From positions 1 through 53,737 of the IMG/VR virus record IMGVR_UViG_3300045988_128558: 53,737 nt of DNA, one strand, 5' to 3'. A program made the position numbers and the translations under genes. This document shows positions 17,942 through 53,737 of the stretch, piece by piece. Source of the stretch: a virus. Numbering within the stretch: the first letter of the stretch is position 1; each line of letters begins with the position of its first letter. The notes below the pieces were generated by a model, which saw only the letters and a program-made list of their open reading frames with translations, had not been told where the DNA came from and searched no databases.

Positions 17942-17943
17942 TC

Positions 17944-18510: not shown

Positions 18511-18522
18511 AAAGAGGCAAAC

Positions 18523-21568: not shown

Positions 21569-22002
21569 TGGAACCTGCAAACTCGGCGGTGTGGCTTCAT
21601 ACCGTGCTCGAACGAGCGTTCCCCGGCCACGTCATCAAAGACGTCGGCTCGGGGGAGCTTCCCGAATGGTACATCCAGCAGCACGAGATGATGTCCTCCT
21701 TCGATGAGGTGGACGCGGAGGATACGCTCAGTATCTCCCGCCGAAGCTTCCGACTGCGCGTGTACGCGCCGACTTCATTCGAGGCGACGCAGCACGCATC
21801 CCGCGCTATCGGCGCGGTGCGGCAGGCTGTCAAGGACCAGGTAACCGCTGGCGGCCTCACCGGATGGTCTTTCTCCCTGTGGCAGGCGCCCGTGGAGAAC
21901 TTCAAGGTCACGTCCATTAAGGCGACCATCGGAGCGCAGGTAGACTGCTCATTCTCTGTGAAGTTCCTGCACACCTTCGATGAGCTTTTTGGGCTTGGCT
22001 AA
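21568..22002 (+). CDS. tail terminator protein (144 aa)
   Basis: ORF 21490..22002 trimmed to the ATG at 21568, which overlaps the upstream TGA. It is the last gene before the major tail protein. Confidence 0.55.
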   Translation: MEPANSAVWLHTVLERAFPGHVIKDVGSGELPEWYIQQHEMMSSFDEVDAEDTLSISRRSFRLRVYAPTSFEATQHASRAIGAVRQAVKDQVTAGGLTGWSFSLWQAPVENFKVTSIKATIGAQVDCSFSVKFLHTFDELFGLG

Positions 22003-22026
22003 AACACTAATTAGAAAGGATTTCTT

Positions 22027-22749: not shown

Positions 22750-22787
22750 TACGTAGCGCCTCTACGGGCAAGAGACGCTATAATAAT

Positions 22788-22820
22788 GGGAGCAGAGATT
22801 CGTCTCTGCTCCCATTTTCT
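22788..22820 (+). terminator. intrinsic terminator after the major tail gene
   Basis: gggagcagaga-ttcg-tctctgctccc (11-bp stem) followed by attttct. Confidence 0.8.
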
Positions 22821-22842
22821 ATGTACATGAAAGGACGGATCC

Positions 22843-23253
22843 TTGACTGAGATCAACCCCTCGCTTCCCCCCGTCTACGCTGACCAGCTGGCGGAGCTTC
22901 ACACCCCCGAGCAGGCAGATGCTATCGCGCTCGCCGCTGCTGCCGAGAACACCCCGGCACCCGCTGAGGAGCCTAAGAGCTACCTCGAACTGCCCGGCCA
23001 CGACCTGCTGATTCCGCTGGAGAAGCTAAAGACTAGCGACAGCTTCCGACTCTACGGCGCGTTCTCTGTTGTGCTGGAGCATGACACTCAGTCGGCACAG
23101 ATGTTTGCCCTGGCAGACTTCCTGGATGAGAACGCCTCGAAGTTCATCTCGGCTGAGCGCCTGGCAGATTGGGAGTCCTTCGCTGTCGCAAAGAACAACA
23201 ACGAAGTTCTCGACCTGCTCATGGCCTACTTCGCAGAAATGGGAAACGACTAA
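22843..23253 (+). CDS. tail assembly chaperone (gpG-like, 136 aa)
   Basis: TTG start after GAAAGGACGG. It lies between the major tail and tape measure genes and has a slippery site near its 3' end. Confidence 0.75.
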   Translation: MTEINPSLPPVYADQLAELHTPEQADAIALAAAAENTPAPAEEPKSYLELPGHDLLIPLEKLKTSDSFRLYGAFSVVLEHDTQSAQMFALADFLDENASKFISAERLADWESFAVAKNNNEVLDLLMAYFAEMGND

Positions 23254-23738
23254 AGCTTCTTCGCCTCGCGCGACGGGAACCGAGCCTCGCTGCTGATTTC
23301 CTTGTCCTCTACGGTATCAACCTAGAGGAAGAAGCAATGCGTCTGCCCGCCTACATAGGTGGAGCGCTCCTCAAGCGCCTGACCTTCGAGCCCCGCTCGA
23401 TGTTCCGGCACGAGGTGCGATTCGAGGTTCTGCAGGACGAGCGTGATATGCCGGAACCCCCGGATTTGAGGACGGAAGCCGAGAAGGAGCGTGCGCAATA
23501 CGACGCACTATTCGGCTACGGCCTCACGGAGCAGCGCCTAACTTGGATTCTGGAGCGGCTGATGTCGTTCCAGGCAATGTACTTCTCGGCTAACTCGCCC
23601 AAGGGTGCCCGCCAGATGGAGCGGGACGAGATTCCCACGCCGGATAAGCTAGTCACGAAGAAGCGCAAACCTACGCCTACCGATTTGCTCAGGCTATACT
23701 ACGGAGGCGAGGAAGAAGATGACGAGCCCGCGGCCTAA
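22843..23738 (+). CDS. tail assembly chaperone -1 frameshift fusion (gpGT-like, about 298 aa)
   Basis: After a -1 slip at 23241-23247 the reading frame becomes that of ORF 23169..23738 (...EMGN|RLKLLRLARREP...). That ORF has no plausible start or RBS of its own. Confidence 0.7.
23241..23247 (+). promoter_or_regulatory. -1 programmed frameshift heptamer G_GGA_AAC
   Basis: X_XXY_YYZ pattern in the zero frame (atG GGA AAC), two codons before the gpG-like stop (TAA 23251-23253). Confidence 0.7.
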
Positions 23739-23789
23739 CCTCTCCGGTTGGCAGGCGGGCTCGTCTGTGTATGAGAGTAAGGAGGATAC

Positions 23790-26700: not shown

Positions 26701-28964
26701 AGGCGATTGAGGGTGCGGAGCGCTACGCCTCGCAGGGCGGCATGGACCGCATTTTCGACTCCATGACTAAGGGCGTGGAGTCGATGTCTCGTGCCATGGC
26801 ACCTTTGACCGAGGGTCTGCTGCGCTTCGTGGAGATTGGCGTATCCTACTTCCCGCGCTTCGGTGACTGGTTCACCGACATGGCGAATAAGTTCAACGAC
26901 TGGACCAAGACAGCGGATATCACCTCCGCGATCGACAAGGGTGTCCAGGCGATGAAGGACTTGTGGCGTGTCGCCGTCGAGACGTGGAATATCTTGGATG
27001 CTATCTCCAAGGCGGCGACGGCAGCTGGCGGCGCTACGCTGGGCGACTTCGCAGATGCGCTGGGTCGTCTCCATGAGCGCTTGGAAACCGTGCAGTCCCA
27101 GTGGATCCTGACCACCCTGTTCAAGGGCGCTAACGATGCAATGTTCGAGCTCGGCAAGAGCTTCGAGATTATTTGGGATGCTCTCAGCCGCACCGCTGAT
27201 AAGGTGGCTACGGTTATGAGGAGTATTTCGGGCATCGTCAATGCCTTCGTGGATTTTATAACCCGGGCCTTCTCCGATACCCGCTTCTCGGATGAGTTTG
27301 TTCAGGCGGTCGAGGACGTGAAGACGGGCATGGAACAACTGGCTCCGCACGGCTCCGCCCTCGGTTCGGTGCTCGGTTCCATCTCATCGGTGGTTGGCAC
27401 TATGGCGAAGGAGTTCTTCCCTATCTTCGGCACGGTGCTTGAAGAACTGTCCCCTATCTTCCAGGATCTCAAGCGTGCTGCGGAAGCAGTCATTCCTGTG
27501 CTGGGGACCTGGCTGAAGGATGCTATCAAGGGGATTGGTGATGTGGTGGAGCCGATCGTCAAGAAGTTCTCGGATTGGGTGGAGAAGAACCCGGAGTTGG
27601 CGGCAACGCTGGGCATCGTTGCGGTGGCTCTTGGCGGCATCCTAGCGGTCATCGGACCCGCTATCGGTGGCATCGCGGGCGCGATTGGGACCATCACGGG
27701 CCTGTTCAGCGGCGTCGGCACGGTGATCGGCGCGTTCTCCGCCGGTGGCGCGCTGGAAGCTGTGGGTGCGGCGGTGGCCTCCGCAGCGGCACCCATCGCT
27801 ATCGCGGTGGCGGCAGTGTTAGCTTTGGCATTCGCGTTCAAGTACACCTGGGACCGCTCAGAAGAGTTCCGTAAGAACATCGAGTCCATCGGCGGGCACC
27901 TCGAAGAGGCCGCCGCGCCCTTCATCAAGTTCTTCAACGATCACTTGAAGCCCGCTATCGAGGAGGCGTGGGGACACATTCAGAACGCCTTTAAGAAGGT
28001 GGGTGACGGTATCCAGACCTTCATGGAGGGCATCTCGGACTTGGCTGACGCGATAGCCCCCATTCTGGCCCCGGTCGCAAACGTCATCGTAGCGGTGTTC
28101 GGCCCCATTCTGGAGGCTATTATCGACAACGCTTCGCGACTCTTCGAGCACATCTTCCAGGTCGTCGGCAGTGTCTTCGGCGCTATCGGTGAGATCTTCA
28201 AGGCTATCGCTGCCCTACTGCGGGGGGACTTCACCGGAGCTCTGGAGCACTTGAAGAACGCCTTCTTCGACGTGTTCGACGCAATCTTCAACTTTGTCGG
28301 CGGAATCATTCGCGCGATCCTGCTCTGGCTCAGCACTACGGCGGGCCGTATCCTGGGGTTTGCGCGTAAGGTCCCCGGCATGGTGTGGGACTTTATCAAG
28401 GGAATCCCCGGGCAACTGGCCAAGGTGCCGGGAATGATTATGGACGTCTTCAAGCGCCTGAACCTGTTTAATTCAGGGCATAACCTCATCACCAGCTTCG
28501 GCAAGGGCATTGTGGACGCCTTTAAGAATGTTAAGCAGTGGACTCTTGACTCGCTCAAGTGGCTGCGTAGCCTGTTCCCGTTCTCCCCGGCTAAGCGTGG
28601 TCCGTTCTCGCGAAGCGCCCCCGGTGGATACCTCGACACCTCGGGTAGTAAGATGATGCACGACTGGGGTAAGGGCATCTTGTCTCAGCAGGACTTCCTG
28701 TCGGACAGCATCAGTACCATGATGGAGGAGATCAAGAGCGACATCGACTTCGACATCGCCCCTGCGATCAGCACGCAGAACATGGACCTGGGCTTCGATG
28801 CGCGCGGCGACGTGCGCCTGTCGGGTAGCTTGACCGGCAGCCTGGAGACTGCGCTGATTAGCGCCCTGTCCAGCGGTGTAGAATTGAGGATGGCAAAGGA
28901 TACCGGACGCGCGGTGCTCGGCTACAGCGAGTCCGCGATGCGAGCCAGCCGCTCTAGCTGGTAA
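23790..28964 (+). CDS. tape measure protein (1724 aa)
   Basis: It is the largest gene and follows the G/GT pair. It has a coiled-coil N-half, a Gly/Ala-rich hydrophobic segment (about aa 1270-1340) and five 24-aa tandem repeats near the N-terminus. Confidence 0.9.
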   Translation: MALGSFEAGKVHIRVLPDASGFNRKLRPELMKAKRDAEKLMRIEVTPVLNKQALQRIKAQLSGLGGTAKIQVDADTSEAKRKLDEAAEDRTSTVHVKADPADLQKSLDEGTRDRGVRVHMEGDSDDLERSLRRSTRDRGVKVKTEADSRDLEKSLNESTRNRSIKLPLEADFDHLEKRLKKATKERKPLRIRIQETVEKYDKLVDAGKDDHRPWSQRFGDEFERLRQKFKESERIPRSWSEAWQKSLTFLRKDKDIDEFLRKISYARTETKKLREFFRERHERRSGISSSDGEDSSSHSVDTGKVRTGGLRDTITRSVTSIRSFIDQVRSAEGPLSSLRNALSKGAQSFSDFYSRVSERAREAFERMKNWITRSNVDDESFERSGKVLDAFNKKAKDSADKSLSLSERISQRMRRIADATVEKIHWITSGQFDDDDAEDVTNRFFDAFEKGISNHDKPDFKLSDLVDFSDDDLFRRADERLQDYRKRLQDFEKQNRTLIRKIANSASFDAARGTEAFDQMNARLQELARQANLARKNLQAMDKAMRDARRNGISKKDPAVEDGSSPLMGVRSLQQNNALLDEARRRFADLADQAERLGNIDMARGLRESMEAVGRQIEQNLKNQKLFGQALSETDRERNRKVAPSERPSSPLDAFPQTQVDFGDFSESLAKLTSHIKELKEERAKISSELNKAVQSGDVEGVDRLEGAFANLRDRLREAREQMDSLNSAQKVLNSPVNIGKGLLDRLRGDNRGEPIEIPAEVDLDDTAAKEQLSHLTEDREVTVNADADTGRARMKMASLTRPRHVLISPELNKAAFVKVATALASLSGARAAFDFTKKFTDFIKDMDKNLGELVKLASVISTLTAGFTSLTSHVFALGRSLVTMIPALYAVPGLVASFGVATWATVNALKKWDERMKDVNDRFKDLNARAANKFWDAFETPMRRLINNLFPAWERGFLNMSEAMGNFFVKAIEGAERYASQGGMDRIFDSMTKGVESMSRAMAPLTEGLLRFVEIGVSYFPRFGDWFTDMANKFNDWTKTADITSAIDKGVQAMKDLWRVAVETWNILDAISKAATAAGGATLGDFADALGRLHERLETVQSQWILTTLFKGANDAMFELGKSFEIIWDALSRTADKVATVMRSISGIVNAFVDFITRAFSDTRFSDEFVQAVEDVKTGMEQLAPHGSALGSVLGSISSVVGTMAKEFFPIFGTVLEELSPIFQDLKRAAEAVIPVLGTWLKDAIKGIGDVVEPIVKKFSDWVEKNPELAATLGIVAVALGGILAVIGPAIGGIAGAIGTITGLFSGVGTVIGAFSAGGALEAVGAAVASAAAPIAIAVAAVLALAFAFKYTWDRSEEFRKNIESIGGHLEEAAAPFIKFFNDHLKPAIEEAWGHIQNAFKKVGDGIQTFMEGISDLADAIAPILAPVANVIVAVFGPILEAIIDNASRLFEHIFQVVGSVFGAIGEIFKAIAALLRGDFTGALEHLKNAFFDVFDAIFNFVGGIIRAILLWLSTTAGRILGFARKVPGMVWDFIKGIPGQLAKVPGMIMDVFKRLNLFNSGHNLITSFGKGIVDAFKNVKQWTLDSLKWLRSLFPFSPAKRGPFSRSAPGGYLDTSGSKMMHDWGKGILSQQDFLSDSISTMMEEIKSDIDFDIAPAISTQNMDLGFDARGDVRLSGSLTGSLETALISALSSGVELRMAKDTGRAVLGYSESAMRASRSSW

Positions 28965-28982
28965 GGACGAAAGGAGATAGGG

Positions 28983-29882
28983 GTGGCCTTCACGATGGAC
29001 ACCAATATTCCGCTTCTTAGCGGGCTGGATGGTTTGTTGTACGACGCCACGGTAGCGGTGTTGAATGGTAGGGTCCTCCCTATCGCCTTCGGCGAGACGA
29101 TCACGCACTCCTACGAGGGCGCGCGGTTTAACACGTTCACCTCAGCCCGAGGAGTGCGCAGTATCTCGTACCGCGGGGACGCACCCCGCAACTTGTCGGT
29201 ATCCCTTCGTATGCCCTGGAAGTATGTTGCCACGGTGCTGGGACTGGAGAGTGTACAGCGTGACCCGATATATGTCATCTCCCCCCTGGCGCGCCGCACC
29301 AACGTTCTTCCCCCGTGGTTCGACTGGAGCGATGTCCGGACAGGTAACCACCACCTGCTGGTACACCACGAGTCGAATCTGAGTGGCTTCGCCCGCTCAC
29401 TGAGCGATATCGCCTATACCGGCACCGCTACCTACGGCCCCTTCGTCATGGATTCCATCAGAACCAAGAGCGCGAATATATACGGGCGCGAGGCGTCAGT
29501 CCCGACCGGGGCCACGTACAGGTTCCGAGCGGGAACCCGATCGTCGGGAGGCAGTATTCTGAGGGCGGTAGGGCTAATCGGGTTTGATAGCTCCGGCAAT
29601 AAGGTGTGGACCTCCCCCTTCATTGAGGCCAGCGGAACCTGGGGGGTGAGGACCTCGGCGGAGTTTACCATCCCGGATACCGTCGCCGTAGTGCGTGACT
29701 TCTATGATGCATCGCTAGTGTCCTTCTCCCCGATGCAGCTGTGGATCGGCACCCACGAGCCCCCGCCCTCGCCGCGCATGGGCGGAACGTTCCAAATTTC
29801 TGATCTCAGTTTCACCGAGGCGCCCAGCACCAAGGCGAAGCTATATGATGTCTCCTATACATTGAAGGAGGTGGCTCCGTGA
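28983..29882 (+). CDS. distal tail protein (Dit-like) / minor tail protein (299 aa)
   Basis: GTG start after AGGAG. It is the first gene after the tape measure gene. Confidence 0.6.
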   Translation: MAFTMDTNIPLLSGLDGLLYDATVAVLNGRVLPIAFGETITHSYEGARFNTFTSARGVRSISYRGDAPRNLSVSLRMPWKYVATVLGLESVQRDPIYVISPLARRTNVLPPWFDWSDVRTGNHHLLVHHESNLSGFARSLSDIAYTGTATYGPFVMDSIRTKSANIYGREASVPTGATYRFRAGTRSSGGSILRAVGLIGFDSSGNKVWTSPFIEASGTWGVRTSAEFTIPDTVAVVRDFYDASLVSFSPMQLWIGTHEPPPSPRMGGTFQISDLSFTEAPSTKAKLYDVSYTLKEVAP

Positions 29883-32404
29883 GCCAAATCTCTCATACGA
29901 TTACGTCTGAGGCTCTTGAGTGGAAGGGCATTTTCCTCCCGGTTTCGGATGTTGTGGTGACGCATGAGTTCTCGCCGCTGCCCCCGGAGGTCTCCCCCGG
30001 TAGGCGAACCCCCCTCACCGTGACGTGCACAGCCCGCAAGAAGGCCTCCCCTACCTACGTGATGCAGACGCCTTTTGAGGGGGGCGCCCCCGAACAGGGG
30101 GATGCGGTGACTCTGACTCTGTTTAAGCGCTACGGCGATGAGGGGGGTACCAGGTCGCATCCACTGAATCTGGTGGTTGATGAGGTTGAATACGACGGCG
30201 ATAATCTGTCACTGCGTCTCATCCAGCGTGTCGATGCCTTCACCATACCGATCTCCATGTCCCCGTGCCCGCCGCACCACACCCGGTATTGGGCTGCCCG
30301 CAGTGATAGGTTCACCAAGGAGCAAATCGGGGACGCAGGGGAGACACGAAGTGTAAACCCGTCTCTTCGGTGGCCCCTCTACTACGCGCTCCGTGCGGGC
30401 GGGTACTCGGTGACACCTCCCCCGCTCCCGACGATTCAGCTTGATCTGCCCCTGCAGGGCGCGTACACCACGAACACGTGGGATAACCCGTATTACTCGC
30501 AGAACGCAGATCGGGATGCGGCGATTCTGTCGAGCGCCAAGGCGATCGACTTTTTCCTGGATCCTCATAGGTTTGGGGCGGCCAGCGAGGAATCGGAGGG
30601 GGTTAATGGCATCGGATTCTCCGGCGAGTTGGCGAGGTCCCGTGCGGGCAAGGATGGGGCCAGCTCTCCGTCTGCTGCGACGTACAACGGGGTTTGGTTT
30701 ATGACCGAGGGTATTGCACAGGTAACCCAGGGTAAGGAGCGCGTGGATATTAGCGCCCGCCCCTATCATCGGGGGCACACTTTCACTTCCTTTATGATTG
30801 TCCGATCCGAGGACGCAGTGAAGAACCCCGAGAACCTGTACCAGGTGAAGTTTTGCACAGACACCCGGCGCGGCCTGGCTCTACGGTGGAACCAAGCAGG
30901 GCATTTTTGGGTGTACAGCTCCTCATATGCGCAGGAGTGGGTGGGCTTCTCCCCAGCTTCTGAGTCGGTCGTTATGGAGTTTGACCTGGACAGCTGGAAG
31001 GGGCAGCGCGAAATCACGGTGACCATTGAACAGATTGCCGACCAGGTAACTATCCGCATCGGTACCGTCCATGAGGTAAAGTTCAATACCCCCTCGATCT
31101 CAGGACCCTACGGGGCTACCCCCACCTGGGTAGAAGTGTGGATTCACAACCCATCAGGGTCTGCTGCAATGGGAGTCACGGGCGTTCAGGTCGCCGGTAT
31201 CCCCATGAATGAACCCTACAGGAGTCGGTTTATGGAGGTGGTAAAAGACTACCACCGCTTCACTCCGAAGGCTCGCGTCTTTGCTAACCCCATCCTCCAC
31301 ACCCAGGGAGTGCTCCCATCAGTCCGAGCGAAGCCCGCAGGCGAAGTGCTGGACGACATCTGCAGCTCCGCCGGTCTTACCTGGTGGATTCGACCCGATG
31401 GGGTAGCGGTTGTTGTGCCTCTGGAGGACCTAGAGCGATCCAGCTACGGGCGCACCTACGCGATTAACGTGTCGTCTGATGTGAAGGACCTCAGCATATC
31501 CAAATCCTCCGTGGACGCGAAGTCATCCCTCGAAGTTGAATACGCAGCTGTGGCGATGTGCTCCTTTGAGGAGGCTCGGTGGGTGCTTTATGAAGGCGGC
31601 GGGTTTGCGGACATTGGTAAACCCGTCGAAGTCATGCTCACTGCGGATGAGGCGATTGACTGGCTTGAGCCCGACTTTACCGTGGAGGAAATGTCTACCC
31701 AGGGGTACCTCTGGCTCAAGAGCGGCGTAGGTTCCTTTTATGGGGGTGGCACCGAGTACCAGATGCATTGGTATGACCAGAAGGGGGCCCTGCAGAATGG
31801 GCCGAAATCCTCATCAGCTATGGATACCGACTTCACGCTAACCAAGATCAACCCGTGGAGCGTCCGACTTACGTCTACCTACACCCGGAGCTACCCGCCG
31901 CCGGACCCCGGAGGAGGCCGGTTCTGGCAGAAGGTGAATGAAGGGGCGCTACAGGCTGTGCCTAACCGGGAGAGGCGAATGAGCGCGCTGAACCAGGGGG
32001 CCCCCAGTCAGATTGATGCGGACATCCACGGGCTCCCCATCATCCGTGCTCGCGGACAGCTCAAGCGCGCGAAGAAAACCGGCACAATTGCGGGTAGTGT
32101 TCAGAACAGCGGTACGCTGCAGGTGGGTAGCTGGGACTGGTTGATGGGGTCCAGCTTCGCGCGGTATGCGGGTAACGCTATCGGCCCTTGGGTGCTCCGA
32201 CCCCGACTCCAGATTAAATCCCTCGTCATCCGCTACCGACCCGAGGTGTCCATCGGAGACACGGTGAACATTTACGGAACTTACGGCTCGGAGATGGGCC
32301 GCGCGTTCGACGGGACTCTGACCGGAATCGTGTACTCGGTGACCCATTCACCGAGTGTTGGCGAGACATCTCTCGGTGTGATGGTCAAGCCGCCGAAGCC
32401 CTAA
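29879..32404 (+). CDS. tail-associated (Tal-like) minor tail protein (841 aa)
   Basis: GTGA overlap with the Dit-like gene. It is the second gene after the tape measure gene and is large. Confidence 0.6.
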   Translation: MSQISHTITSEALEWKGIFLPVSDVVVTHEFSPLPPEVSPGRRTPLTVTCTARKKASPTYVMQTPFEGGAPEQGDAVTLTLFKRYGDEGGTRSHPLNLVVDEVEYDGDNLSLRLIQRVDAFTIPISMSPCPPHHTRYWAARSDRFTKEQIGDAGETRSVNPSLRWPLYYALRAGGYSVTPPPLPTIQLDLPLQGAYTTNTWDNPYYSQNADRDAAILSSAKAIDFFLDPHRFGAASEESEGVNGIGFSGELARSRAGKDGASSPSAATYNGVWFMTEGIAQVTQGKERVDISARPYHRGHTFTSFMIVRSEDAVKNPENLYQVKFCTDTRRGLALRWNQAGHFWVYSSSYAQEWVGFSPASESVVMEFDLDSWKGQREITVTIEQIADQVTIRIGTVHEVKFNTPSISGPYGATPTWVEVWIHNPSGSAAMGVTGVQVAGIPMNEPYRSRFMEVVKDYHRFTPKARVFANPILHTQGVLPSVRAKPAGEVLDDICSSAGLTWWIRPDGVAVVVPLEDLERSSYGRTYAINVSSDVKDLSISKSSVDAKSSLEVEYAAVAMCSFEEARWVLYEGGGFADIGKPVEVMLTADEAIDWLEPDFTVEEMSTQGYLWLKSGVGSFYGGGTEYQMHWYDQKGALQNGPKSSSAMDTDFTLTKINPWSVRLTSTYTRSYPPPDPGGGRFWQKVNEGALQAVPNRERRMSALNQGAPSQIDADIHGLPIIRARGQLKRAKKTGTIAGSVQNSGTLQVGSWDWLMGSSFARYAGNAIGPWVLRPRLQIKSLVIRYRPEVSIGDTVNIYGTYGSEMGRAFDGTLTGIVYSVTHSPSVGETSLGVMVKPPKP

Positions 32405-45772: not shown

Positions 45773-48193
45773 TTAATCAGCGTAGGTGACACGGAAGACG
45801 GTCTGCGAGCCGTAGCAACCGACTCGCTGCCTTCCTTCCTCCTGGACCAGCACACCCTTACGGGTAAGGCTGACCAGGGCAGCTGTGATGCGGTTCTGGT
45901 CGCGCAGAGACATGTCGGGCAGACCCTTACGCATAATCTCCACCCACACAGCGGCAGGTGTGATGAACGAGCGGGAAGCCGTGGGCACAGACTTATTCTC
46001 CATGCCCATGCTCTCATCCTGGAGCCATTGAATACGCTCGGGCAGGGACATACGCTCCCACGCCACAGGCACCGGGGACTCCAGCGCCTCGGTGATGGTC
46101 GCCACGAGGTTGTCTTCCATCGTGTGCGACTTTCGAGCCTGCTCTGCCAGCACTTCCTCTGCCGGAGAGAGCACGGGGCGCTCGCCGTCCTGGTACAGCG
46201 CCACCGCTTCTGCCCACACCTGGTCCACGTACTCAGGGGTGTACTTATCGAAGTCCATCTGCTCCAGAACATCGACAATGAGGAAGCGGCGGTTGCCGTC
46301 ACGCTCTCGTAGCATCATCGGATCATTGGTGGTACCCCATACGACCCATCGGCGTGGTACTTCCGTAGCCGAACGGTCATACGGCAAGCGGTACACGTCC
46401 CTCTGCCTGGTCAAGAAGTCCTTGAGCTCGTTGAAGTCGGCGTTGTTCAGGGCGTGGCCCTCATCTGACACCATAATCCACGAGCGCGAAGCTGAAATGA
46501 GCGTGTCCTTGTTCTGAATGTCGCCCAGGCTGGCGGTGTACCCGCGCGCCATGCGTTCAATCCAGGTGGTCTTACCGACACCCTGCCCGCCGAAGAGGAT
46601 AAGGGACTGGTCTACCTTGCATCCGGGCTTGAACGCACGGGCTACCGCGCCGAGCAGGGCACGCTTGGCGACCATGCGGTTGTACGGGGTGTCCTCAGCA
46701 CCAGGTAGGCACGTCTCCAGGCGGGGTATGCCGTCCCAGGTGAGGCTCTGCAGGTACTTTTTCACCGGGTCGATGCGCCGCTCACGGCGCACGCGCCCGA
46801 GAAGGTCGTCCACTCGCTGTCGGGTGACTCGCCGGATCTGGTACTGCCGCTCGATATGGTCTTTCAGACCGCTCACGTCCGCATTATTCACCTGCGGCGG
46901 GCTTCCATCCCTCAAGTCGTAGTCTTCACCCATGATTGCCTCGTAATCACCGCGGACATTCCACCAGAGGGACTTGAAGATGGGGTCGTTCATGAAGATG
47001 AGGTCGTAATTCTCGATGCGGTCTTCGACCTGCAAGGTTTTCTCGTGCCGGATGAGTTGGCTTGTCCAGTCGAGGCTACCAGAGCCCTGTTCCTCGTCTT
47101 CCTCGGACTCCTGAGCAGGCTCAGGCTCCTGCGTGAGGGTCGAGACATCCTCCGAAGCGGTCAGCGGGATACTGGCAGCGTCGGGACGCGCCACGTTGTC
47201 GTAGGCGGCATCTGCCCGGCGCTGTCGGAAGCCCTCGTGCGTGGCCAAGAAATTCTTCATCGCCAGAGAGGACGGAGAGTGGATGACTGCGCCCTCGTAC
47301 CCTGCATCTAGGGCTCCGAATTTATGGATTCGGACTAAATCGAAGGCGTTCTGTGCTCGACCGCTCGCCGGGTCGCTTCCGTGGTTGGAAAAATACAGCA
47401 AAGGGGCGTCCGGCAGTGGACTCATACCGGGAGCGGAGCTCTTATCGGCATGAATGTACCGGAAGCGGCTTCCCACGCGCTCGTAGGGGAGCTTGAAGAC
47501 CTCAATCAGCTCATCGAGGTCTTGGTAGTGCTTGCAGAACTCCCCGGCGATGCCCTTGAGCGTCAGCGGGTCCTTCTTGCGCACTCGACCGAGGGATACA
47601 ACGCCCTCGGGGGAGTCCGGGGCGCTCTGGAACAGCGCACCGGAGGCCAACGGGCGGTTCAGCTCGCTTCCGTACTCGTACAGGCTCTCGTCCTTCGCCG
47701 CGGGAGTGAACATGATCTGGCTGGGGGTGGCGCTCGCCGCGTCGATCGCCGCTTGAGGCACAGCGCGCATGATTTCACGCACGATGCGGGTGTACACGTC
47801 GGGGGTGACCATCCCATCCAGCGGAATGAGCACCCGGTACGAGGGCTTCTGAGGGGAGTGCGAGAAGGTCGTGTGCCACAGCACCGCCACGTCATCCAGG
47901 TAGCTCAGAAGCTCCGTGAAGCCCTCTGCGGAGGCTCCGTCCAGGTCGAGGGTGATGACGCTACGACCAATCACGTTGTCGCCGCTACGGTGGTGCCCGC
48001 GCAGCTCGCCGGGCAGGTATGAGCGAGCGTTCTTCTGCGTTCCGGGCGAGCGTAGCATGTCGAGGAAGTCGTCAAGGCTGTACTGCAGGGCTGTGGTGTT
48101 CGCGCTGGTGCCCTGTGCGAACTCTACGGGGAACCGCTTCTCGGTGCGGATGTCTGCGGCCACCGTAGTTGTTGATGGGGAGAGTACGGACAT
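45773..48193 (-). CDS. bifunctional primase-polymerase (PrimPol-like N-domain) / VirE-type P-loop helicase (806 aa)
   Basis: The N-terminal region has ITLDLDG...VLWHTTFSHSP...YRVLIPLDG and the C-terminal region has Walker A LFGGQGVGKTT. Confidence 0.75.
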   Translation of the reverse strand: MSVLSPSTTTVAADIRTEKRFPVEFAQGTSANTTALQYSLDDFLDMLRSPGTQKNARSYLPGELRGHHRSGDNVIGRSVITLDLDGASAEGFTELLSYLDDVAVLWHTTFSHSPQKPSYRVLIPLDGMVTPDVYTRIVREIMRAVPQAAIDAASATPSQIMFTPAAKDESLYEYGSELNRPLASGALFQSAPDSPEGVVSLGRVRKKDPLTLKGIAGEFCKHYQDLDELIEVFKLPYERVGSRFRYIHADKSSAPGMSPLPDAPLLYFSNHGSDPASGRAQNAFDLVRIHKFGALDAGYEGAVIHSPSSLAMKNFLATHEGFRQRRADAAYDNVARPDAASIPLTASEDVSTLTQEPEPAQESEEDEEQGSGSLDWTSQLIRHEKTLQVEDRIENYDLIFMNDPIFKSLWWNVRGDYEAIMGEDYDLRDGSPPQVNNADVSGLKDHIERQYQIRRVTRQRVDDLLGRVRRERRIDPVKKYLQSLTWDGIPRLETCLPGAEDTPYNRMVAKRALLGAVARAFKPGCKVDQSLILFGGQGVGKTTWIERMARGYTASLGDIQNKDTLISASRSWIMVSDEGHALNNADFNELKDFLTRQRDVYRLPYDRSATEVPRRWVVWGTTNDPMMLRERDGNRRFLIVDVLEQMDFDKYTPEYVDQVWAEAVALYQDGERPVLSPAEEVLAEQARKSHTMEDNLVATITEALESPVPVAWERMSLPERIQWLQDESMGMENKSVPTASRSFITPAAVWVEIMRKGLPDMSLRDQNRITAALVSLTRKGVLVQEEGRQRVGCYGSQTVFRVTYAD

Positions 48194-48298: not shown

Positions 48299-49684
48299 CT
48301 ACACACTTGGGCCGTCGTCTTCCTTCTTGAGGTAGTCCAGGAGAGCCTGCTGTGCGTCCACCTTATGCGTCAATCGTGCGTAAACGTGCTCGTCAATTGA
48401 GTTCGGAACCTCCAGGATGTGAATAGTCACAGGGTGCTCCTGTCCACTGCGGTGAAGGCGCTTATTGGACTGCAACCACGCCTCACTGCTCCACGGCAGA
48501 GACAGCCAGACGGCGATGTGGCCGCCCTTCTGCAAGTTCAGACCATGACCGATGGACTCGGGGTGCGCGGCAAGGATGGGAATCTCGCCGTTGTTCCAGC
48601 GGTCTACGAAATCCTTGTCCTTGACGGTGCTCACCAGCGCACCAAGCTTCGGGTGCGCCTTGAGCATCTGCAATTCAGCGGCGAAGCGGTAGAAGACCAG
48701 CACCGGGGAGCCATTGGCGGCTTCCACCAGGTCCTCCAGCTTGTCGAGCTTGGCGCGGTGAAGCACCGTGAACGGGCGCTCAGCGCTCGCTGGAGCGTCG
48801 ATGTCGGCTTCATGGTACAAGAAGCCGCTGGTGATCTGTGAGAGCTTGCTAGAGGCGACAGCGGCGTTCTGAGCGGAAATCTCCTCGCCCTCCGAGGCGA
48901 GCCAAACGCTCATCTCGTCGCGCATCCGCTTGTACGCCTTCACTGCGGTCGCCGTCATGCGTACCGGGTGAGTCACGTAGGTGACCTCGGGCAGCTCGAC
49001 GCGACCCTCCGTGCCCTGCGAGAGCACCAGGTGCTCGATTGCCTTGTAAATCTTCTTCTCCGACCCTGCCTTGGGTAGCCACTGGGTGAAGTTTCCGAAG
49101 CGCTGGGACGGAAGGAAGAAGCGCTCGCGGTACGCGGTCAAGGTGCGACCTAGAGCCAAACCACCGTCCAGCAGTTTGATCTGGGAGTACAGGTCGAGCA
49201 GACCCTTCGGGGTGGGGGTGCCAGTCAGACCCCATACGTGGTCTACGAAGGGCGTGATGATGGAGGCGCCCTTGAAACGCTGCGTCGCTTGGTTTTTGTA
49301 GCCGGATAGCTCGTCGATAATGAGAGTCTTGAAGTAGCCAGAGGCTGCCTTCTGCGCGGCCTCAGCCAGGTTCTCGCGGGAGATGATGGTCAGGTCTGCG
49401 TCCACGGCGAGGGCGGCGGCGCGCTTCTGCGGGGTGCCCTTCACGACGGTAATCGACAGGTGCGGTGCCCAGATGTCTCGCTCAGCCCCCCACGTGAACT
49501 CAGCGACACGCTTCGGGGCGACGACGAGTGCGGGCAGGTGGTCACGGGTGAGGGCGCTCAGGCACGTTGCGGTCTTGCCCAAGCCCATGTCGAGGAAGAG
49601 AGCCTTGCCCTTGCCGGGGCGGTGCAGGAAGTCCACGGCCTCGGTCTGATACGGGCGCAGCTTCAAGATAGGGTCGGTGGTCAT
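48299..49684 (-). CDS. SNF2-family DEAD-like helicase (461 aa)
   Basis: ORF 48299..49849 trimmed to the ATG at 49684, after AAAGGA. Motifs are LRPYQ, motif I DMGLGKT, motif II DELS, and a C-terminal helicase domain. Confidence 0.8.
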   Translation of the reverse strand: MTTDPILKLRPYQTEAVDFLHRPGKGKALFLDMGLGKTATCLSALTRDHLPALVVAPKRVAEFTWGAERDIWAPHLSITVVKGTPQKRAAALAVDADLTIISRENLAEAAQKAASGYFKTLIIDELSGYKNQATQRFKGASIITPFVDHVWGLTGTPTPKGLLDLYSQIKLLDGGLALGRTLTAYRERFFLPSQRFGNFTQWLPKAGSEKKIYKAIEHLVLSQGTEGRVELPEVTYVTHPVRMTATAVKAYKRMRDEMSVWLASEGEEISAQNAAVASSKLSQITSGFLYHEADIDAPASAERPFTVLHRAKLDKLEDLVEAANGSPVLVFYRFAAELQMLKAHPKLGALVSTVKDKDFVDRWNNGEIPILAAHPESIGHGLNLQKGGHIAVWLSLPWSSEAWLQSNKRLHRSGQEHPVTIHILEVPNSIDEHVYARLTHKVDAQQALLDYLKKEDDGPSV

Positions 49685-49700: not shown

Positions 49701-49997
49701 CTAATGTTCGCTGTCGCGGTCTGCGAGCCACTGCGCCACGCCTTCATGCCCGTAGAGCACAGCGACGTTCGCGCCGATGGTGTCGAGTTTACTGATGATG
49801 TGTTTCTGTCGGGCGGAGAGGCGTCCGCCTCGCGCTCGCTTGAGTTCAAGGAACCAGACAGCCCCGCCGGGTAGGATAACGATCCGGTCGGGTACCCCCG
49901 TCTCCGAGGAGAGGAACTTGTAGCTCAGCCAATGGCGCTTAGCGCACTGTTTCACGAGGTACTTCTCGACGTCCTTTTCGAGGGGGGTGTTGGTCAT
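49701..49997 (-). CDS. VRR-NUC domain nuclease (98 aa)
   Basis: ORF 49701..50072 trimmed to the ATG at 49997, after AAGGAG. It contains the motif GVPDRIVILPGGAVWFLELK. Confidence 0.65.
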   Translation of the reverse strand: MTNTPLEKDVEKYLVKQCAKRHWLSYKFLSSETGVPDRIVILPGGAVWFLELKRARGGRLSARQKHIISKLDTIGANVAVLYGHEGVAQWLADRDSEH

Positions 49998-50025
49998 GCT
50001 CTGGCACTCCTTTTCGGCGGTTCCC

Positions 50026-50397
50026 GAGAAAAGTATATAAACTTTTTTAGTTTTAGCGTCATTTAGCGCCAAACCCCTAGTCAGAGCGTTTTGACCCTAG
50101 ATTTTTTTAGGGTCATTTTAGCGTCACTTTAGCGTCACTGACGCTAAAATCTGGATTTGTGGAGAGGTAGCTCACGTGGTTTTCTACCTGATGTGAGCGT
50201 GGTCACTAGGTGTAGTGTCGTCGGTCACAGAGGCTCTGTTTTCTGTGTGGGCTACTTCACCTTTGACTCTAATTTTAGCGTCATTGACCCTAAAATGACC
50301 CTAAAGTGACGCTAAAATTTTTTAGGGTCAAAACGCTCTGACTAGGGGTTTGGCGCTAAATGACGCTAAAACTCGCGCGTACGGAAAGTTTATATAG
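50026..50397. repeat. iteron-dense region with 50-bp perfect inverted repeats; candidate replication origin or operator array
   Basis: The arms 50050-50099 and 50323-50372 are exact reverse complements. There are about 12 exact and 2 degenerate copies of TTAG(C/G)GTCA / TGAC(C/G)CTAA in both orientations. The outer flanks are AT-rich (aagtatataaac / aagtttatata). Confidence 0.85.
50032..50037 (-). promoter_or_regulatory. candidate -10 box (TATACT) of a leftward promoter overlapping the outermost iterons
   Basis: The minus strand reads aaATGACGctaaaactaaaaaagtttaTATACTtttc, upstream of the VRR-NUC gene. The -35 is weak (ATGACG) and the spacer is 19 nt. Confidence 0.3.
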
Positions 50398-50417: not shown

Positions 50418-50448
50418 GTTCGAGGGTACAGAAAAGCCACCCTCGAAC
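50418..50448. terminator. perfect 10-bp hairpin downstream of the HNH gene
   Basis: gttcgagggt-11 nt-accctcgaac. A T-rich run follows on the plus strand only. Confidence 0.4.
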
Positions 50449-50480
50449 TTCTGTTCATGGGTGGCTCTCCCGTTATTTCC

Positions 50481-50924
50481 CTAGTCGCTTTCGGTACCCC
50501 TACCGTTAGCGCTTCCTAGTTTACCGGAAGCCTTGTACTTACTCCAGTCGATGCGAGCGCCCAGCGGTGCGTCCTTGCGGAGGATTTCTCGCCCGCCCAG
50601 ACCTCGGACCGTCTGTCCCGACATTCGCCTAAGCCTCTGCAGGCTCTCGCGGTTCTTCCGGGCCGTCTCAGAGCTGGTCTTGCGCCGGTGGTGGTGCCCA
50701 CACAGCGCGGCGAGGTTGCTCGGGTCGTTGCTCGGCCCGTTGATGTGGTCTACGTCGGTTGCCTTGGCTGTACAGCGCTGTCCGGTCACTGCGTTGGTCG
50801 CCATGCACTGAAAGCCCGCTGCCTTGAGCACATCGAGTCGAATCTTCCTCCATTGTGGGGATTGCTTATAGGTGAGTCCACTCTTCGCACCCCACCCGGT
50901 ACGTTTCTTGCTACGCTTCGGCAC
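50481..50924 (-). CDS. HNH endonuclease (147 aa)
   Basis: GTG start. Contains the motif C...C...DVDHINGPSNDPSNLAALCGHHHRRKT. Confidence 0.8.
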   Translation of the reverse strand: MPKRSKKRTGWGAKSGLTYKQSPQWRKIRLDVLKAAGFQCMATNAVTGQRCTAKATDVDHINGPSNDPSNLAALCGHHHRRKTSSETARKNRESLQRLRRMSGQTVRGLGGREILRKDAPLGARIDWSKYKASGKLGSANGRGTESD

Positions 50925-51351
50925 GGGATGCCCCCTGCGCGGCCTTCAAAGCCACCTCAGCGGCTTCTTCACGGGTTAGACCGCCAACTGAGTACTCAAC
51001 GGACTTTGCGGCGCTCAGGAAGCCGTCAGCGCCTCCGGTGATGGTGCAGACGATGAGTCCTGAGCCGTCGCCGGTAGCGTAGTCCTCGACGTGGGCCACG
51101 TCCGGCACGTTAGAGCCTTCGCCTCGCATCTTCTGCGACAGGGTTAGCCCCGCCCACGCCAGGATGTCCTCTTCCCGCCATAGTCGTCCCTCCCCAAGGT
51201 CCTTGCCCCGGTTGTAGGTCACTGCCGGTGCCGGAAAGTTCTTGCTGTTGAGAGCGTGATAGATATTCGCGCGGGTGTAGCCTGTGGCGGTGGCAATAGC
51301 CTGGATGTCGTAGAGCTTTCCGTGCTTACCGAGGTTCGGGGAGTTAGTCAT
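50911..51351 (-). CDS. helix-turn-helix DNA-binding protein (Xis/MerR-like HTH; 146 aa)
   Basis: The N-terminal LYDIQAIATATGYTRANIYHALNSKNFPAP...WREEDILAW is typical of HTH_17/AlpA-type domains. Confidence 0.6.
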   Translation of the reverse strand: MTNSPNLGKHGKLYDIQAIATATGYTRANIYHALNSKNFPAPAVTYNRGKDLGEGRLWREEDILAWAGLTLSQKMRGEGSNVPDVAHVEDYATGDGSGLIVCTITGGADGFLSAAKSVEYSVGGLTREEAAEVALKAAQGASRAEA

Positions 51352-53034: not shown

Positions 53035-53729
53035 TGTTTCTTCATCTCCTCTTGGTAGTTTTGTTCGATTCGTAGCACTGCGTAGCGCAGGGTTGCCAGG
53101 CTGATGGTGACTCCCTCCGGCACGCGCTTGTCTTGTAGTGCTTTCGTAGCAAGCTTAGCAAGCTTCTCGGAGCACTCGGCCAGCACCTTAGCGGCTTCTT
53201 GCGCGAGGTCGGCTTCGTGCCGCGCTTTACCGGATTCGGCATCCCAGGGCTTGAGCGCGGCGGCCACGATGTCAGGGGATACTACACGCACCGAGCTCGG
53301 GTAGAGGTAGCCTTGCTGTACGACGTTGAGCCAGCGGCGCAGGTAGGGCAAGACTTTGTTCTTGTCTCTGGCCGGGGTGTGGTTCATCAGCACGACGGCG
53401 TGTTCAAGGGTAACGCCTTGGGCGTCTACGCTGTTGCCGCGCCCTTCCTCGGTCAGCTCTTTGATGACGTTTGCGGGGAACCGTCCGACGTTTCGCATGT
53501 CCCCGCTTCGTCCGCGGAGCCAGCCGTTGAAGCTGCCAGGGGATGCCCCGATGATGCGGGTAAGCTGGGCGACGTGGACATGCAGGCGCAGGATGCCTCG
53601 CTCGTCAGCGGCGACTCGGAAGATGAGCGGCATCTTCTCGACTCGCTTCGTGGACTGGACGTACACTTCGCAGGTGGCGATGTGGAACTCGGGGCGCTCT
53701 TCGCTGGTGCGGTGCGAGACGATCTTCAT
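53031..53729 (-). CDS. hypothetical protein (232 aa); probably starts 6 codons further upstream across the contig junction
   Basis: An in-frame ATG lies at nt 63-65 of the duplicated start copy (MPLTEG-MKIVSHR...) and overlaps the TAA of gene 65..532 (TAATG). There is a weak, unverified resemblance to antirepressor-type DNA-binding domains. Confidence 0.75.
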   Translation of the reverse strand: MKIVSHRTSEERPEFHIATCEVYVQSTKRVEKMPLIFRVAADERGILRLHVHVAQLTRIIGASPGSFNGWLRGRSGDMRNVGRFPANVIKELTEEGRGNSVDAQGVTLEHAVVLMNHTPARDKNKVLPYLRRWLNVVQQGYLYPSSVRVVSPDIVAAALKPWDAESGKARHEADLAQEAAKVLAECSEKLAKLATKALQDKRVPEGVTISLATLRYAVLRIEQNYQEEMKKQ

Positions 53730-53737
53730 GCCTTCGG

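What the first reader, a model, noticed from the sequence alone, without database searches (positions are those of the whole stretch)
50026..50397. Iteron-packed palindromic region: candidate origin of replication or operator array
A 370-bp non-coding region lies between the HNH and VRR-NUC genes. It contains two exact 50-bp inverted repeats (50050-50099 and 50323-50372) separated by 223 bp. AT-rich inverted blocks lie further out (aagtatataaac / aagtttatata). The 9-mer TTAG(C/G)GTCA or its complement occurs exactly at 50053, 50107, 50118, 50129, 50139, 50275, 50285, 50296, 50307, 50322 and 50361. A 3'-variant tgaccctag lies at 50092, and degenerate copies lie at 50063 and 50351. One pair forms a perfect 9+1+9 palindrome, TTAGCGTCA-C-TGACGCTAA. 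Neighbouring copies are spaced about 11 bp apart. Iterons, an AT-rich flank and a position inside the replication gene block fit a replication origin. The outermost iteron also overlaps the -35 region of a candidate TATACT promoter facing the VRR-NUC, SNF2 and primase genes. The array could therefore equally be an operator set for a phage DNA-binding protein, for example the HTH protein at 50911-51351. A MITE-like insertion is another possibility, although I found no target-site duplication.
Basis: partly seen in the sequence, partly recalled or inferred. Interest (0 to 1): 0.65.

Follow-up and report, generated by a model that had tools for sequence, protein, structure and literature searches.

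The report
Candidate phage replication origin with iterons
A 330-bp mirror-symmetric block of fourteen copies of one 10-base word sits just upstream of this virus's DNA-replication genes, and is most likely the site where its primase-helicase, a relative of a known self-loading initiator, starts genome copying.

Summary
TTAGSGTCA occurs 11 times exactly, and 14 times within one mismatch of TTTAGSGTCA. All copies lie in 50052-50370, against 0.46 expected by chance and none elsewhere in the genome. They form two mirror-image arms of 7 sites with 10-11 bp phasing around a 123-bp centre, with outer TATATAAACTTT boxes.

The window is a complete circular 53.7-kb genome of an uncultured, apparently virulent siphophage. 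The array lies between a terminator-like hairpin after the HNH gene and the VRR-NUC, SNF2 and primase-helicase operon.

Two-armed arrays with different, lineage-specific repeat words lie upstream of VRR-NUC in at least 12 related lineages, including the cultured Glutamicibacter phage Montesquieu. This rules out a MITE.

The primase-helicase is a homologue of the staphylococcal SaPI Rep initiator (PDB 7PDS, E = 2e-47) and has a confidently modelled C-terminal winged-helix domain. SaPI Rep binds two opposed iteron sets at its origin through such a domain.

Best reading (about 0.55): a lytic replication origin loaded by the phage's own primase-helicase, which probably also controls the adjacent operon promoter. 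An operator-only role is not excluded. It is a new variant of a known kind, of moderate interest.

The parts
50428..50473 (-). Terminator-like hairpin directly after the HNH stop codon. It marks the upstream boundary of the element.
   Evidence: The RNA fold is -40.3 kcal/mol, z = -5.3, with a GGCUUUUCU tail. It appears as inverted repeat I4 and is conserved in 7 relatives.
50385..50396 (.). Right outer box AAAGTTTATATA, partner of the 12-bp perfect inverted repeat. CGCGCG lies next to it at 50374-50379.
   Evidence: I11. The block TAACTTCTATATAAACTTTCCGTACGCGCGAG is invariant in 7 relatives. All TATATA hexamers found in the roughly 8-10-kb stretches examined for three lineages lie within 70 bp of the array.
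50273..50373 (.). Right arm with seven iterons: 50275-83(+), 50285-93(-), 50296-304(-), 50307-15(-), 50322-30(+), 50351-59(-, variant TTTAGCGCCA) and 50361-69(-).
50150..50272 (.). Centre, GC 0.50, poorly conserved in relative L003. It contains the inner inverted repeat GGAGAGGTAGCTCAC (50161-50175 paired with 50247-50261).
50049..50149 (.). Left arm with seven iterons: 50053-61(+), 50063-71(+, variant), 50092-100(-), 50107-15(+), 50118-26(+), 50129-37(+) and 50139-47(-). It mirrors the right arm.
   Evidence: In the inner block all 6 arm-to-arm mismatches fall on motif position 5 or on spacer bases.
50026..50048 (-). Left AT-rich flank, GC 0.17. It holds the outer box TATATAAACTTT (50034-50045) and the candidate -10 TATACT (minus strand, 50037 to 50032). 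The Shine-Dalgarno sequence AAGGAG lies at 50007-50012.
   Evidence: No consensus -35 was found. The -10 matches that of the genome's early promoters.
49701..49997 (-). VRR-NUC nuclease gene, first gene of the operon downstream of the array. It is the constant neighbour of such arrays in all lineages examined.
48299..49684 (-). SNF2-family helicase gene.
45773..48193 (-). Primase-helicase (PriRep-like, 806 aa), the predicted initiator. The SF3/VapE helicase core spans aa 373-719. The C-terminal winged-helix domain spans about aa 741-806 (nt 45776-45973).
   Evidence: PDB 7PDS (SaPI1 Rep1) matches at E = 2.3e-47. In the AF2 model the C-terminal domain has pLDDT about 94. Foldseek top hits are 7PDS chains at E = 1e-11.

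Best explanation
The element is the phage's lytic origin of replication, built like the origin of staphylococcal SaPI islands.

- Fourteen 10-bp iterons (TTTAGSGTCA, centre base free) are arranged as two mirror-image arms of seven. Within each arm they are phased at one helical turn.
- I propose (inferred) that they are bound by the C-terminal winged-helix domains of the phage's own primase-helicase, an SF3/VapE enzyme homologous to SaPI Rep.
- One hexamer would then assemble on each arm, and the duplex would open in the very AT-rich outer boxes (TATATAAAC) or in the centre. The primase domain would prime and the phage PolA would extend.
- The outermost iteron of the left arm abuts the invariant TATACT -10 of the VRR-NUC, SNF2 and primase-helicase operon. 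The same binding therefore probably also tunes transcription of the replication genes (autoregulation, inferred).

Shown here: the array, its symmetry, its uniqueness in the genome, its positional conservation with changing iteron sequence, and the initiator homology. Inferred: who binds, where melting occurs, and that replication starts here.
For: 1. **Statistics.** There are 11 exact sites against 0.46 expected, 14 of 17 relaxed hits lie here, and there are no other clusters in the genome.
2. **Selection acts on the word, not on hairpin pairing.** Across 93 aligned sites from 7 genomes, eight of the ten consensus positions are 90-99% conserved and two are 83-86%. Position 5 is 34 C, 57 G and 2 T. 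In the inner block (50105-50149) all 6 mismatches between the arms fall on the 13 non-core positions and none on the 32 core positions. My calculation gives P = C(13,6)/C(45,6) = 2e-4.
3. **Same architecture, different word, in at least 12 lineages.** Two opposed iteron blocks, usually 2 + spacer + 3-5 per arm, lie 50-830 bp upstream of VRR-NUC.
   - Lineages: AGGGGACA, AGGCGACA, TCAAGCAT, GAGGTACG, AGGAGGCG, GTTATTTG/GAGGGTA, AGAGCATGAAC (including the cultured virulent phage Montesquieu), GAGGGTCG, TGTGACAC, GTGTTACAC and AAAGTTAC.
   - In three lineages the array starts at the stop codon of the primase-helicase gene, which is the SaPI rep-ori order.
4. **Initiator homology.** Residues 373-719 of the primase-helicase match SaPI1 Rep1 (PDB 7PDS) at E = 2.3e-47. 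The model of residues 560-806 has a C-terminal domain at pLDDT about 94. That domain contains helices followed by a beta-hairpin. Foldseek returns 7PDS chains first (E = 1e-11, 262-280 columns), then winged-helix proteins.
5. **Published mechanism for SaPI.** The winged helix in the Rep C-terminal domain binds 6-12 iterons, half on each side of an AT-rich region and in opposite orientation. Two hexamers probably self-load there (PMC9371898).
6. **C-terminal domain conservation tracks the iteron.** It is 86-100% identical among same-iteron genomes, where the adjacent linker is only 35-82% identical. It is 34% and 23% identical to other-iteron groups, where the helicase core is 62% and 55%.
7. 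**Base composition.** This is one of only two low-GC loci in a 60% GC genome.
8. **No lysogeny or partition functions.** No integrase, partition or repressor genes were found.
Against: - No experimental or read-depth evidence of initiation exists. Cumulative GC skew is monotonic and uninformative.
- The centre is not AT-rich (GC 0.50, against 0.41-0.43 in the arms). This differs from SaPI origins.
- In this window the array is 1.8 kb from the primase-helicase gene, not adjacent to it.
- Its constant neighbour is the start of the VRR-NUC gene, and it sits between a terminator and a -10 element. A purely transcriptional role would explain this equally well.
- Covariation between the C-terminal domain and the iteron is loose. 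Groups with nearly the same word (AGGGGACA and AGGCGACA) have domains only 35% identical.
- Two related lineages (L061, L062) show no array within 1.2 kb upstream of SNF2.
- A second low-GC non-coding region (10.6-11.7 kb) could also hold an origin.
Confidence: 0.55

Rival explanations
1. The element is only a transcriptional control region. A phage DNA-binding protein, such as the weak Xis/AlpA-like product of 50911-51351 or another early protein, coats the two arms. It represses or activates the TATACT promoter of the VRR-NUC, SNF2 and primase operon, acting as an early-to-middle switch. Replication starts elsewhere.
For: - The array lies exactly between a terminator-like hairpin and an invariant -10 plus Shine-Dalgarno sequence.
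- The outermost iteron occupies the -35 position, and no consensus -35 exists.
- Arrays in all lineages lie just upstream of VRR-NUC.
- A small Xis-like wHTH-looking gene lies nearby in two lineages.
Against: - Fourteen helically phased sites spread over 320 bp in two mirror arms far exceed what ordinary operators need.
- The far arm, 250-330 bp from the -10, and the second outward-facing TATATA box have no role in this model.
- The candidate regulator has no detectable orthologue in the AGGCGACA lineages (L009, L010, L013) that keep the architecture. Its HTH call is sub-threshold.
- The iteron words of different lineages share a common 5' half (TTAGnG or tAGGsG; my reading of the sequences). 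This points to a conserved, slowly drifting binder such as a core replication protein.
Confidence: 0.25
2. The long palindrome acts as a DNA structure. It would form a cruciform, or a hairpin when single-stranded, and serve as a priming or helicase-loading signal comparable to the ssi signals of plasmids. In this reading it is not a set of duplex binding sites.
For: The single strand folds at -119.7 kcal/mol, z = -22.8. The outer 51 bp of the arms are perfectly complementary.
Against: - Differences between the arms are not compensated. They fall on motif position 5 and on spacers.
- In relatives the arms differ further.
- In several lineages the arms are unequal, for example 9 sites against 2 in L070 and 8 against 2 in L077. 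Pairing is therefore not what is conserved.
Confidence: 0.07
3. The element is a packaging (pac) recognition site bound by the small terminase subunit.
For: Small terminases bind arrays of short phased repeats. Montesquieu is predicted to package by a pac mechanism (PMC9331655).
Against: - terS and terL lie at 11748-15010, about 15 kb away around the circle. They are preceded by their own 1.1-kb non-coding region.
- In three lineages the array lies between the primase-helicase and VRR-NUC genes.
- The Montesquieu record starts inside a gene, so its ends are arbitrary.
Confidence: 0.05
4. The element is a recombination or segregation site: an attP with arm-type sites, or a parC-like centromere.
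For: - TTAGGGTCA tandem pairs flank about 165-bp cores next to tyrosine-integrase genes in unrelated contigs.
- From my own knowledge of plasmid R1, parC also has two sets of 11-bp-phased repeats around a promoter.
Against: - No integrase, ParA/ParM or ParB/ParR was found in the scanned proteome.
- No window protein resembles those integrases.
- The closest cultured relative is virulent.
- No matching prophage was found in 185,579 reference genomes.
Confidence: 0.04
5. The element is a passive MITE-like insertion.
For: It has terminal inverted repeats, its GC content is lower than the genome's, and it is non-coding.
Against: - It is single-copy in the genome.
- It is present in all 7 close relatives, with no empty site.
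- Analogous arrays occupy the same position in lineages whose SNF2 is only 40-60% identical.
- I saw no target-site duplication.
Confidence: 0.02

Closest known systems
SaPI/PICI replication origins bound by Rep or PriRep self-loading SF3 helicases (SaPI1, SaPIbov1, SaPI5; PMC9371898)
   Same: - The initiator is homologous (7PDS, E = 2e-47) and is fused to a primase domain, as in SaPI5 PriRep.
- It has a C-terminal winged-helix domain.
- The short iterons form two sets of opposite orientation.
- The iteron sequence is lineage-specific.
- In some related phages the array directly follows the rep gene.
   Different: - This is a virulent 53.7-kb actinophage-like virus, not a satellite.
- It has 14 sites of 9-10 bp, against 6-12 sites of 5-8 bp.
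- The centre is not AT-rich. The AT-rich TATATAAAC boxes are on the outside.
- In this window the array is upstream of VRR-NUC and SNF2, 1.8 kb from the primase-helicase gene.
- Binding is untested.
Satellite phage P4 ori/crr bound by the alpha primase-helicase (from my own knowledge of the P4 literature)
   Same: A primase plus SF3 helicase plus C-terminal DNA-binding domain in one polypeptide recognises octamer repeats. A second, distant repeat block (crr) is needed in cis, giving a two-block logic.
   Different: - In P4 the two blocks are kilobases apart and are direct repeats.
- No mirror palindrome is present.
- No sequence similarity to P4 alpha was tested here.
SV40 and papillomavirus core origins, loaded by the SF3 helicases large T antigen and E1 (from my own knowledge)
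   Same: Inverted short binding sites at the centre are flanked by easily melted AT-rich or palindromic elements. An SF3 helicase assembles over them as a double hexamer.
   Different: - These are eukaryotic viruses.
- They have 4-6 sites rather than 14.
- The origin-binding domain has a different fold.
- The resemblance is one of logic only.
Iteron origins of theta plasmids and phages (P1 oriR, lambda ori, pPS10/RK2; reviews PMC4980987 and PMC5043065)
   Same: They also have repeated, helically phased initiator sites next to an AT-rich unwinding element. Iterons that overlap the rep promoter give autoregulation.
   Different: - Those iterons are 17-22 bp and mostly direct repeats.
- The initiators are Rep_3/WH1-WH2 or lambda O proteins that recruit a host helicase.
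- No such protein was detected here.
- The lambda iterons lie inside the O gene.
Plasmid R1 parC centromere and promoter bound by ParR (from my own knowledge)
   Same: Two sets of 11-bp-phased repeats flank or overlap a promoter and are coated cooperatively.
   Different: It requires an adjacent parM-parR operon, and none is present. The R1 repeats are direct, not mirror-symmetric.

Membership tests
SaPI/PICI-type Rep-ori system | The initiator is an SF3 (VapE/D5-like) helicase homologous to SaPI Rep. | tested here: met
   phmmer against the PDB finds 7PDS_A (SaPI1 Rep1) at E = 2.3e-47, query residues 373-719. Pfam VapE-like_dom matches at 1.7e-60. The identity of 7PDS was confirmed in PMC9371898.
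SaPI/PICI-type Rep-ori system | A C-terminal winged-helix domain provides iteron recognition. | tested here: met
   This is model-level evidence only. In the AF2 model the C-terminal domain has pLDDT about 94, with helices followed by a beta-hairpin. Foldseek returns 7PDS chains at E = 1e-11 over 262-280 columns, then winged-helix proteins. DNA binding itself was not tested.
SaPI/PICI-type Rep-ori system | Several short iterons are split into two sets of opposite orientation. | tested here: met
   There are 7 + 7 sites in mirror arrangement.
SaPI/PICI-type Rep-ori system | An AT-rich region lies at the centre, between the two iteron sets. | tested here: not met
   The centre 50150-50272 has GC 0.50, against 0.41-0.43 in the arms. 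The AT-rich segments are the outer flanks (left flank GC 0.17).
SaPI/PICI-type Rep-ori system | The origin lies immediately downstream of the rep gene. | tested here: not met
   In the window the array is upstream of the operon and 1.8 kb from the primase-helicase gene. The feature is met in related loci L085, L106 and L114.
SaPI/PICI-type Rep-ori system | Rep binds and melts the origin specifically, and the origin supports replication. | not testable with these tools
   This needs EMSA or footprinting, a plasmid replication assay, and marker-frequency analysis.
Theta-plasmid or lambda-type iteron origin | A dedicated Rep_3/WH1-WH2 or lambda-O-type initiator, with 17-22-bp direct iterons. | tested here: not met
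   No such Pfam family appears among the early and replication-block proteins scanned. The iterons are 9-10 bp and in mixed orientation.
MITE or other mobile insertion | Multiple copies or presence/absence polymorphism with clean ends, and a target-site duplication. | tested here: not met
   The element is single-copy and present in all 7 close relatives. Analogous arrays occupy the same position in distant relatives. I saw no target-site duplication.
attP with arm-type integrase sites | An adjacent tyrosine integrase, and a core identical to a host attB. | tested here: not met
   The scanned proteins include no integrase, although the structural genes at 16566-32404 were not scanned. No window protein resembles the integrases next to TTAGGGTCA pairs in other contigs. 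attB was not searched.
ParR/parC-type centromere | An adjacent partition ATPase and adaptor genes. | tested here: not met
   No ParA, ParM or ParB families were found.
Operator array of a transcription factor | Sites overlap the core promoter elements of the regulated operon, and a cognate regulator gene is present. | tested here: inconclusive
   One iteron sits at the -35 position of an invariant TATACT. The only nearby candidate regulator has a sub-threshold HTH match and no orthologue in the AGGCGACA lineages (L009, L010, L013).

The most novel reading that the evidence does not exclude
These two-armed iteron arrays are a previously undescribed, widespread class of lytic phage origins. A PriRep-type SF3 primase-helicase would self-load on them as a double hexamer. 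This would be a bacterial-virus counterpart of the SV40 and papillomavirus origin logic. The iteron and C-terminal-domain pairs would define replication-specificity groups among otherwise related phages. The element would also act as the on-switch of the replication operon.
Probability: 0.35. Interest if true: 0.6.

Novelty: new variant of a known kind. Interest (0 to 1): 0.45.

Why it matters
Origins of replication are unknown for most phages, and for essentially all uncultured ones.

- If this reading is right, the origin of a large and diverse set of phages could be read from sequence. These are the phages that carry the VRR-NUC, SNF2 and VapE-primase module, and they include cheese-rind and human-associated actinophages and low-GC lineages.
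- The cognate initiator domain could also be predicted.
- This would extend the SaPI 'self-loading helicase plus iterons' mechanism from satellites to virulent phages.
- It would give a natural panel of iteron and winged-helix pairs for studying specificity.
- It would identify a target for phage-encoded-resistance-style decoys and for engineering phage replicons.

Tried and rejected
- **DNA searches of cultured phages.** megablast and blastn of the region and of an 8.7-kb flank found nothing.
- **RNA genes.** Rfam and ARAGORN found none.
- **Literature search for the 9-mer.** It returned only irrelevant hits. No paper linking VRR-NUC/SNF2 phages to an origin was found.
- **IMG/VR pattern scan for the double iteron.** It retrieved the same phage family. 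It also retrieved unrelated contigs where TTAGGGTCA pairs are arm-type attP sites beside tyrosine integrases. I rejected these as relevant, because no homologous protein exists in the window.
- **Reference-genome scan.** It gave 10 hits in unrelated phyla, including a MITE-like (GGTCATTTAG)n palindrome in a Chitinophagales MAG. It gave no prophage, satellite or host clue.
- **GC skew.** It is monotonic and uninformative.
- **CGCGCG box near arrays.** Enrichment is only 2.3-fold, too weak to claim.
- **Covariation between the C-terminal domain and the iteron.** It is consistent with the model but loose, so it is not decisive.
- **Lineages L012, L061, L062 and L076.** No array was found in the stretch examined.
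- **Rejected readings.** The MITE, attP, parC and pac readings are rejected on the evidence given under the rival explanations.

Full report
**1. The observation**

- TTAGSGTCA matches 11 times on the two strands, at exactly the listed coordinates and nowhere else in 53.7 kb. The expected count is 0.46 and the maximum in 100 shuffles was 3.
- Allowing one mismatch to TTTAGSGTCA gives 14 sites inside 50052-50370. It gives only 3 elsewhere, which is the chance level.
- The exact inverted repeat is 51 bp, 50049-50099 paired with 50323-50373. It is the outer part of a 127-nt imperfect palindrome.
- A perfect 12-bp inverted repeat (TATATAAACTTT and AAAGTTTATATA) brackets the whole element at 50034-50045 and 50385-50396.
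- Site spacing is 10-11 bp.

Each arm has the same layout. Reading inward it holds two direct sites, of which the second is always the variant TTTAGCGCCA. Then come a 20-nt spacer and one inverted site, followed by an A/T run. Three direct sites and one inverted site complete the arm. This gives 7 + 7 sites around a 123-bp centre.

**2. Context**

The first and last 55 bases of the window are identical, so it is a circular assembly of a 53,682-bp genome.

- Genes run on the minus strand from about 11.5 kb through the junction down to 40 kb. They run on the plus strand from 11.7 to 40 kb.
- The plus block starts with terS, terL and portal and ends with an amidase/SH3_5 endolysin.
- Four near-consensus sigma-70 promoters at 10750-11138 drive the minus block.
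- The array lies between the HNH gene (50481-50924) and VRR-NUC (49701-49997). A strong terminator-like hairpin follows the HNH gene.
- VRR-NUC is followed by SNF2, an 806-aa primase-helicase, a DUF2800 nuclease, an Enc34-type SSB and PolA.
- No integrase, partition or repressor family was detected.
- No cultured phage matches at the DNA level.
- The closest cultured relative by protein is the virulent Glutamicibacter siphophage Montesquieu, with 38% identity in the primase.

The array and the early-promoter region are the only two low-GC loci in this 60% GC genome.

**3. Selection on the word**

Seven IMG/VR relatives (SNF2 89-94% identical) keep the whole element.

- Over 93 aligned sites, eight of the ten consensus positions are 90-99% conserved and two are 83-86%. 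The centre base is 34 C, 57 G and 2 T.
- Within the window's inner block, all six differences between the two arms fall on that centre base or on inter-site spacers. None falls on the 32 core positions. By my calculation P = 2e-4.
- The duplex word is therefore under selection, rather than arm complementarity. This holds even though the single strand could fold at -120 kcal/mol.

**4. Comparative anatomy**

This is the main new evidence. In relatives with 40-63% SNF2 identity the same position, upstream of VRR-NUC, holds an analogous two-armed array built from a different word.

| Locus | Iteron word |
|---|---|
| L009, L010, L013, L058 | (T/G)AGGCGACAA |
| L048-L050 | AGGGGACA |
| L068 | TCAAGCAT, arranged 2+4 and 3+2 |
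| L069, L070 | GAGGTACG |
| L071 | AGGAGGCG |
| L072 | GTTATTTG and GAGGGTA |
| L073 and phage Montesquieu | AGAGCATGAAC |
| L077 | GAGGGTCG |
| L085 | TGTGACAC |
| L106 | GTGTTACAC |
| L114 | AAAGTTAC |

- The array ends 105-173 bp before VRR-NUC in eight of these lineages, 565-830 bp before it in four, and 52 bp before it in the window.
- In L085, L106 and L114 the gene order differs, and the array starts at the stop codon of the primase-helicase gene.
- Several words share a 5' half (TTAGnG or tAGGsG). This is what one expects if a conserved protein's specificity drifts slowly.
- The pattern excludes a mobile insertion and argues for a cis element with a co-evolving, conserved binder.
- It is not universal. 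L061 and L062 show no array within 1.2 kb upstream of SNF2.

**5. The candidate binder**

- Residues 373-719 of the primase-helicase match PDB 7PDS at E = 2.3e-47. 7PDS is SaPI1 Rep1.
- According to PMC9371898, SaPI Reps are self-loading SF3 helicases. Their C-terminal winged helix recognises 6-12 short iterons. Half of the iterons lie on each side of an AT-rich region, pointing in opposite directions. Two hexamers probably load there. In SaPI5 the primase and Rep are fused, as in this phage.
- An AF2 model of residues 560-806 has a C-terminal domain at pLDDT about 94, with helices followed by a beta-hairpin.
- Foldseek returns the six 7PDS chains first (E = 1e-11 to 2e-9, 262-280 aligned columns). 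Proteins matched through winged-helix domains follow.
- The last 66 residues are 86-100% identical among same-iteron genomes, while the neighbouring linker is only 35-82% identical. They drop to 34% and 23% identity in other-iteron groups, where the helicase core stays at 62% and 55%.
- This fits a specificity domain but is not decisive. Two groups with nearly the same word have C-terminal domains only 35% identical.
It has no detectable orthologue in the AGGCGACA lineages (L009, L010, L013), although a 92-aa protein of similar appearance exists there.

**6. Mechanism proposed**

Early transcription from the 10.7-11.1-kb promoters runs through the junction and stops at the hairpin after the HNH gene.

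The replication operon is transcribed from the invariant TATACT at 50037 to 50032. This hexamer has the same -10 sequence as the early promoters but lacks a -35. In actinobacterial hosts a -10 alone often suffices (my own knowledge).

The remaining steps are inferred:

1. The primase-helicase accumulates.
2. Its winged helices bind the 7 + 7 iterons, and one hexamer forms on each arm.
3. The duplex opens in the TATATAAAC boxes (left flank GC 0.17) or in the centre.
4. The primase domain primes and PolA extends.
5. Occupancy of the outermost iteron, at the -35 position, feeds back on operon transcription.

**7. Comparison and novelty**

- The closest known system is the SaPI/PICI Rep-ori pair. 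Three defining features are met: Rep homology, a winged-helix C-terminal domain (model level), and two opposed iteron sets.
- Two features are not met: the AT-rich centre, and the position immediately downstream of rep. I therefore file it as a variant that works like a SaPI origin, not as a member of that family.
- It also resembles P4 ori/crr and the logic of SV40 and papillomavirus origins (inverted sites flanked by meltable elements, double SF3 hexamer).
- I found no paper describing these arrays.
- That a phage has an iteron origin would not surprise a specialist. The value lies in the breadth of the pattern and in the testable initiator-origin pairing.

**8. Rivals**

- An operator-only role remains possible, at about 0.25.
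- A structural hairpin signal is less likely because arm differences are not compensated and because arms are unequal in some relatives.
- The pac, attP and parC readings lack the required genes or position.
- The MITE reading is refuted.

**9. Verdict**

The element is a new variant of a known kind, with interest 0.45.

Noticed in passing
window 1-55 and 53683-53737: The two 55-bp ends are identical, so the window is a circular assembly of a complete 53,682-bp genome.
   Followed up: yes
window 10570-11750: This is a 1.1-kb non-coding, low-GC region between the divergent early and late blocks. It holds four near-consensus TG-extended sigma-70 promoters on the minus strand (TTGACA-N17-TATACT) at 10750-11138. 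It also holds a degenerate TG-rich microsatellite at 11266-11485, 3.5 copies of GTGCGTTTAC, and a perfect 21-bp-stem hairpin at 11630-11682 just before terS. It is a likely site for pac or cos and an alternative origin candidate.
   Followed up: partly
window 12221-15010: The large terminase ORF is 929 aa and has a LAGLIDADG_3 match at aa 298-347. This is probably an intein inside terL.
   Followed up: no
window 6904-6940, 8117-8206, 8833-8918, 9465-9552, 9949-10041: A repeated intergenic cassette lies between early genes. It consists of a hairpin that looks like a tRNA T-arm (GGTTCGACTCC on the minus strand), followed by a conserved ribosome-binding region and a start codon. ARAGORN calls no tRNA.
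   Followed up: no
L019, L021, L024, L025, L026, L032 (IMG/VR contigs): Tandem TTAGGGTCA pairs at 11-12-bp spacing flank cores of about 165 bp. They lie directly after tyrosine-integrase genes whose N-terminus has the pattern GTVRKRSDGRWEGRY. They look like arm-type attP sites that happen to share the 9-mer.
   Followed up: partly
L121 6860-7350 (Chitinophagales MAG): About 17 copies of GGTCATTTAG and about 14 inverted copies flank a 180-bp palindrome between ars-like genes. This is an unrelated MITE-like element containing the same 9-mer.
   Followed up: partly
L070 2240-2420; L072 2188-2493: In two related lineages a second repeat family (TACGTTATTTGA) lies inside or around the main iteron array. 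This suggests a second DNA-binding protein at these elements.
   Followed up: no
window 50374-50379 and loci L048, L058, L068, L085, L106: A CGCGCG(A) run lies within about 100 bp of the array in several lineages, including genomes of 40% GC. Overall enrichment is only 2.3-fold, so its significance is uncertain.
   Followed up: partly
L013 4460-5190 (also L009, L010): In the AGGCGACAA lineage, about 700 bp with no convincing ORF lies between a terminator and the array. Its content was not examined.
   Followed up: no
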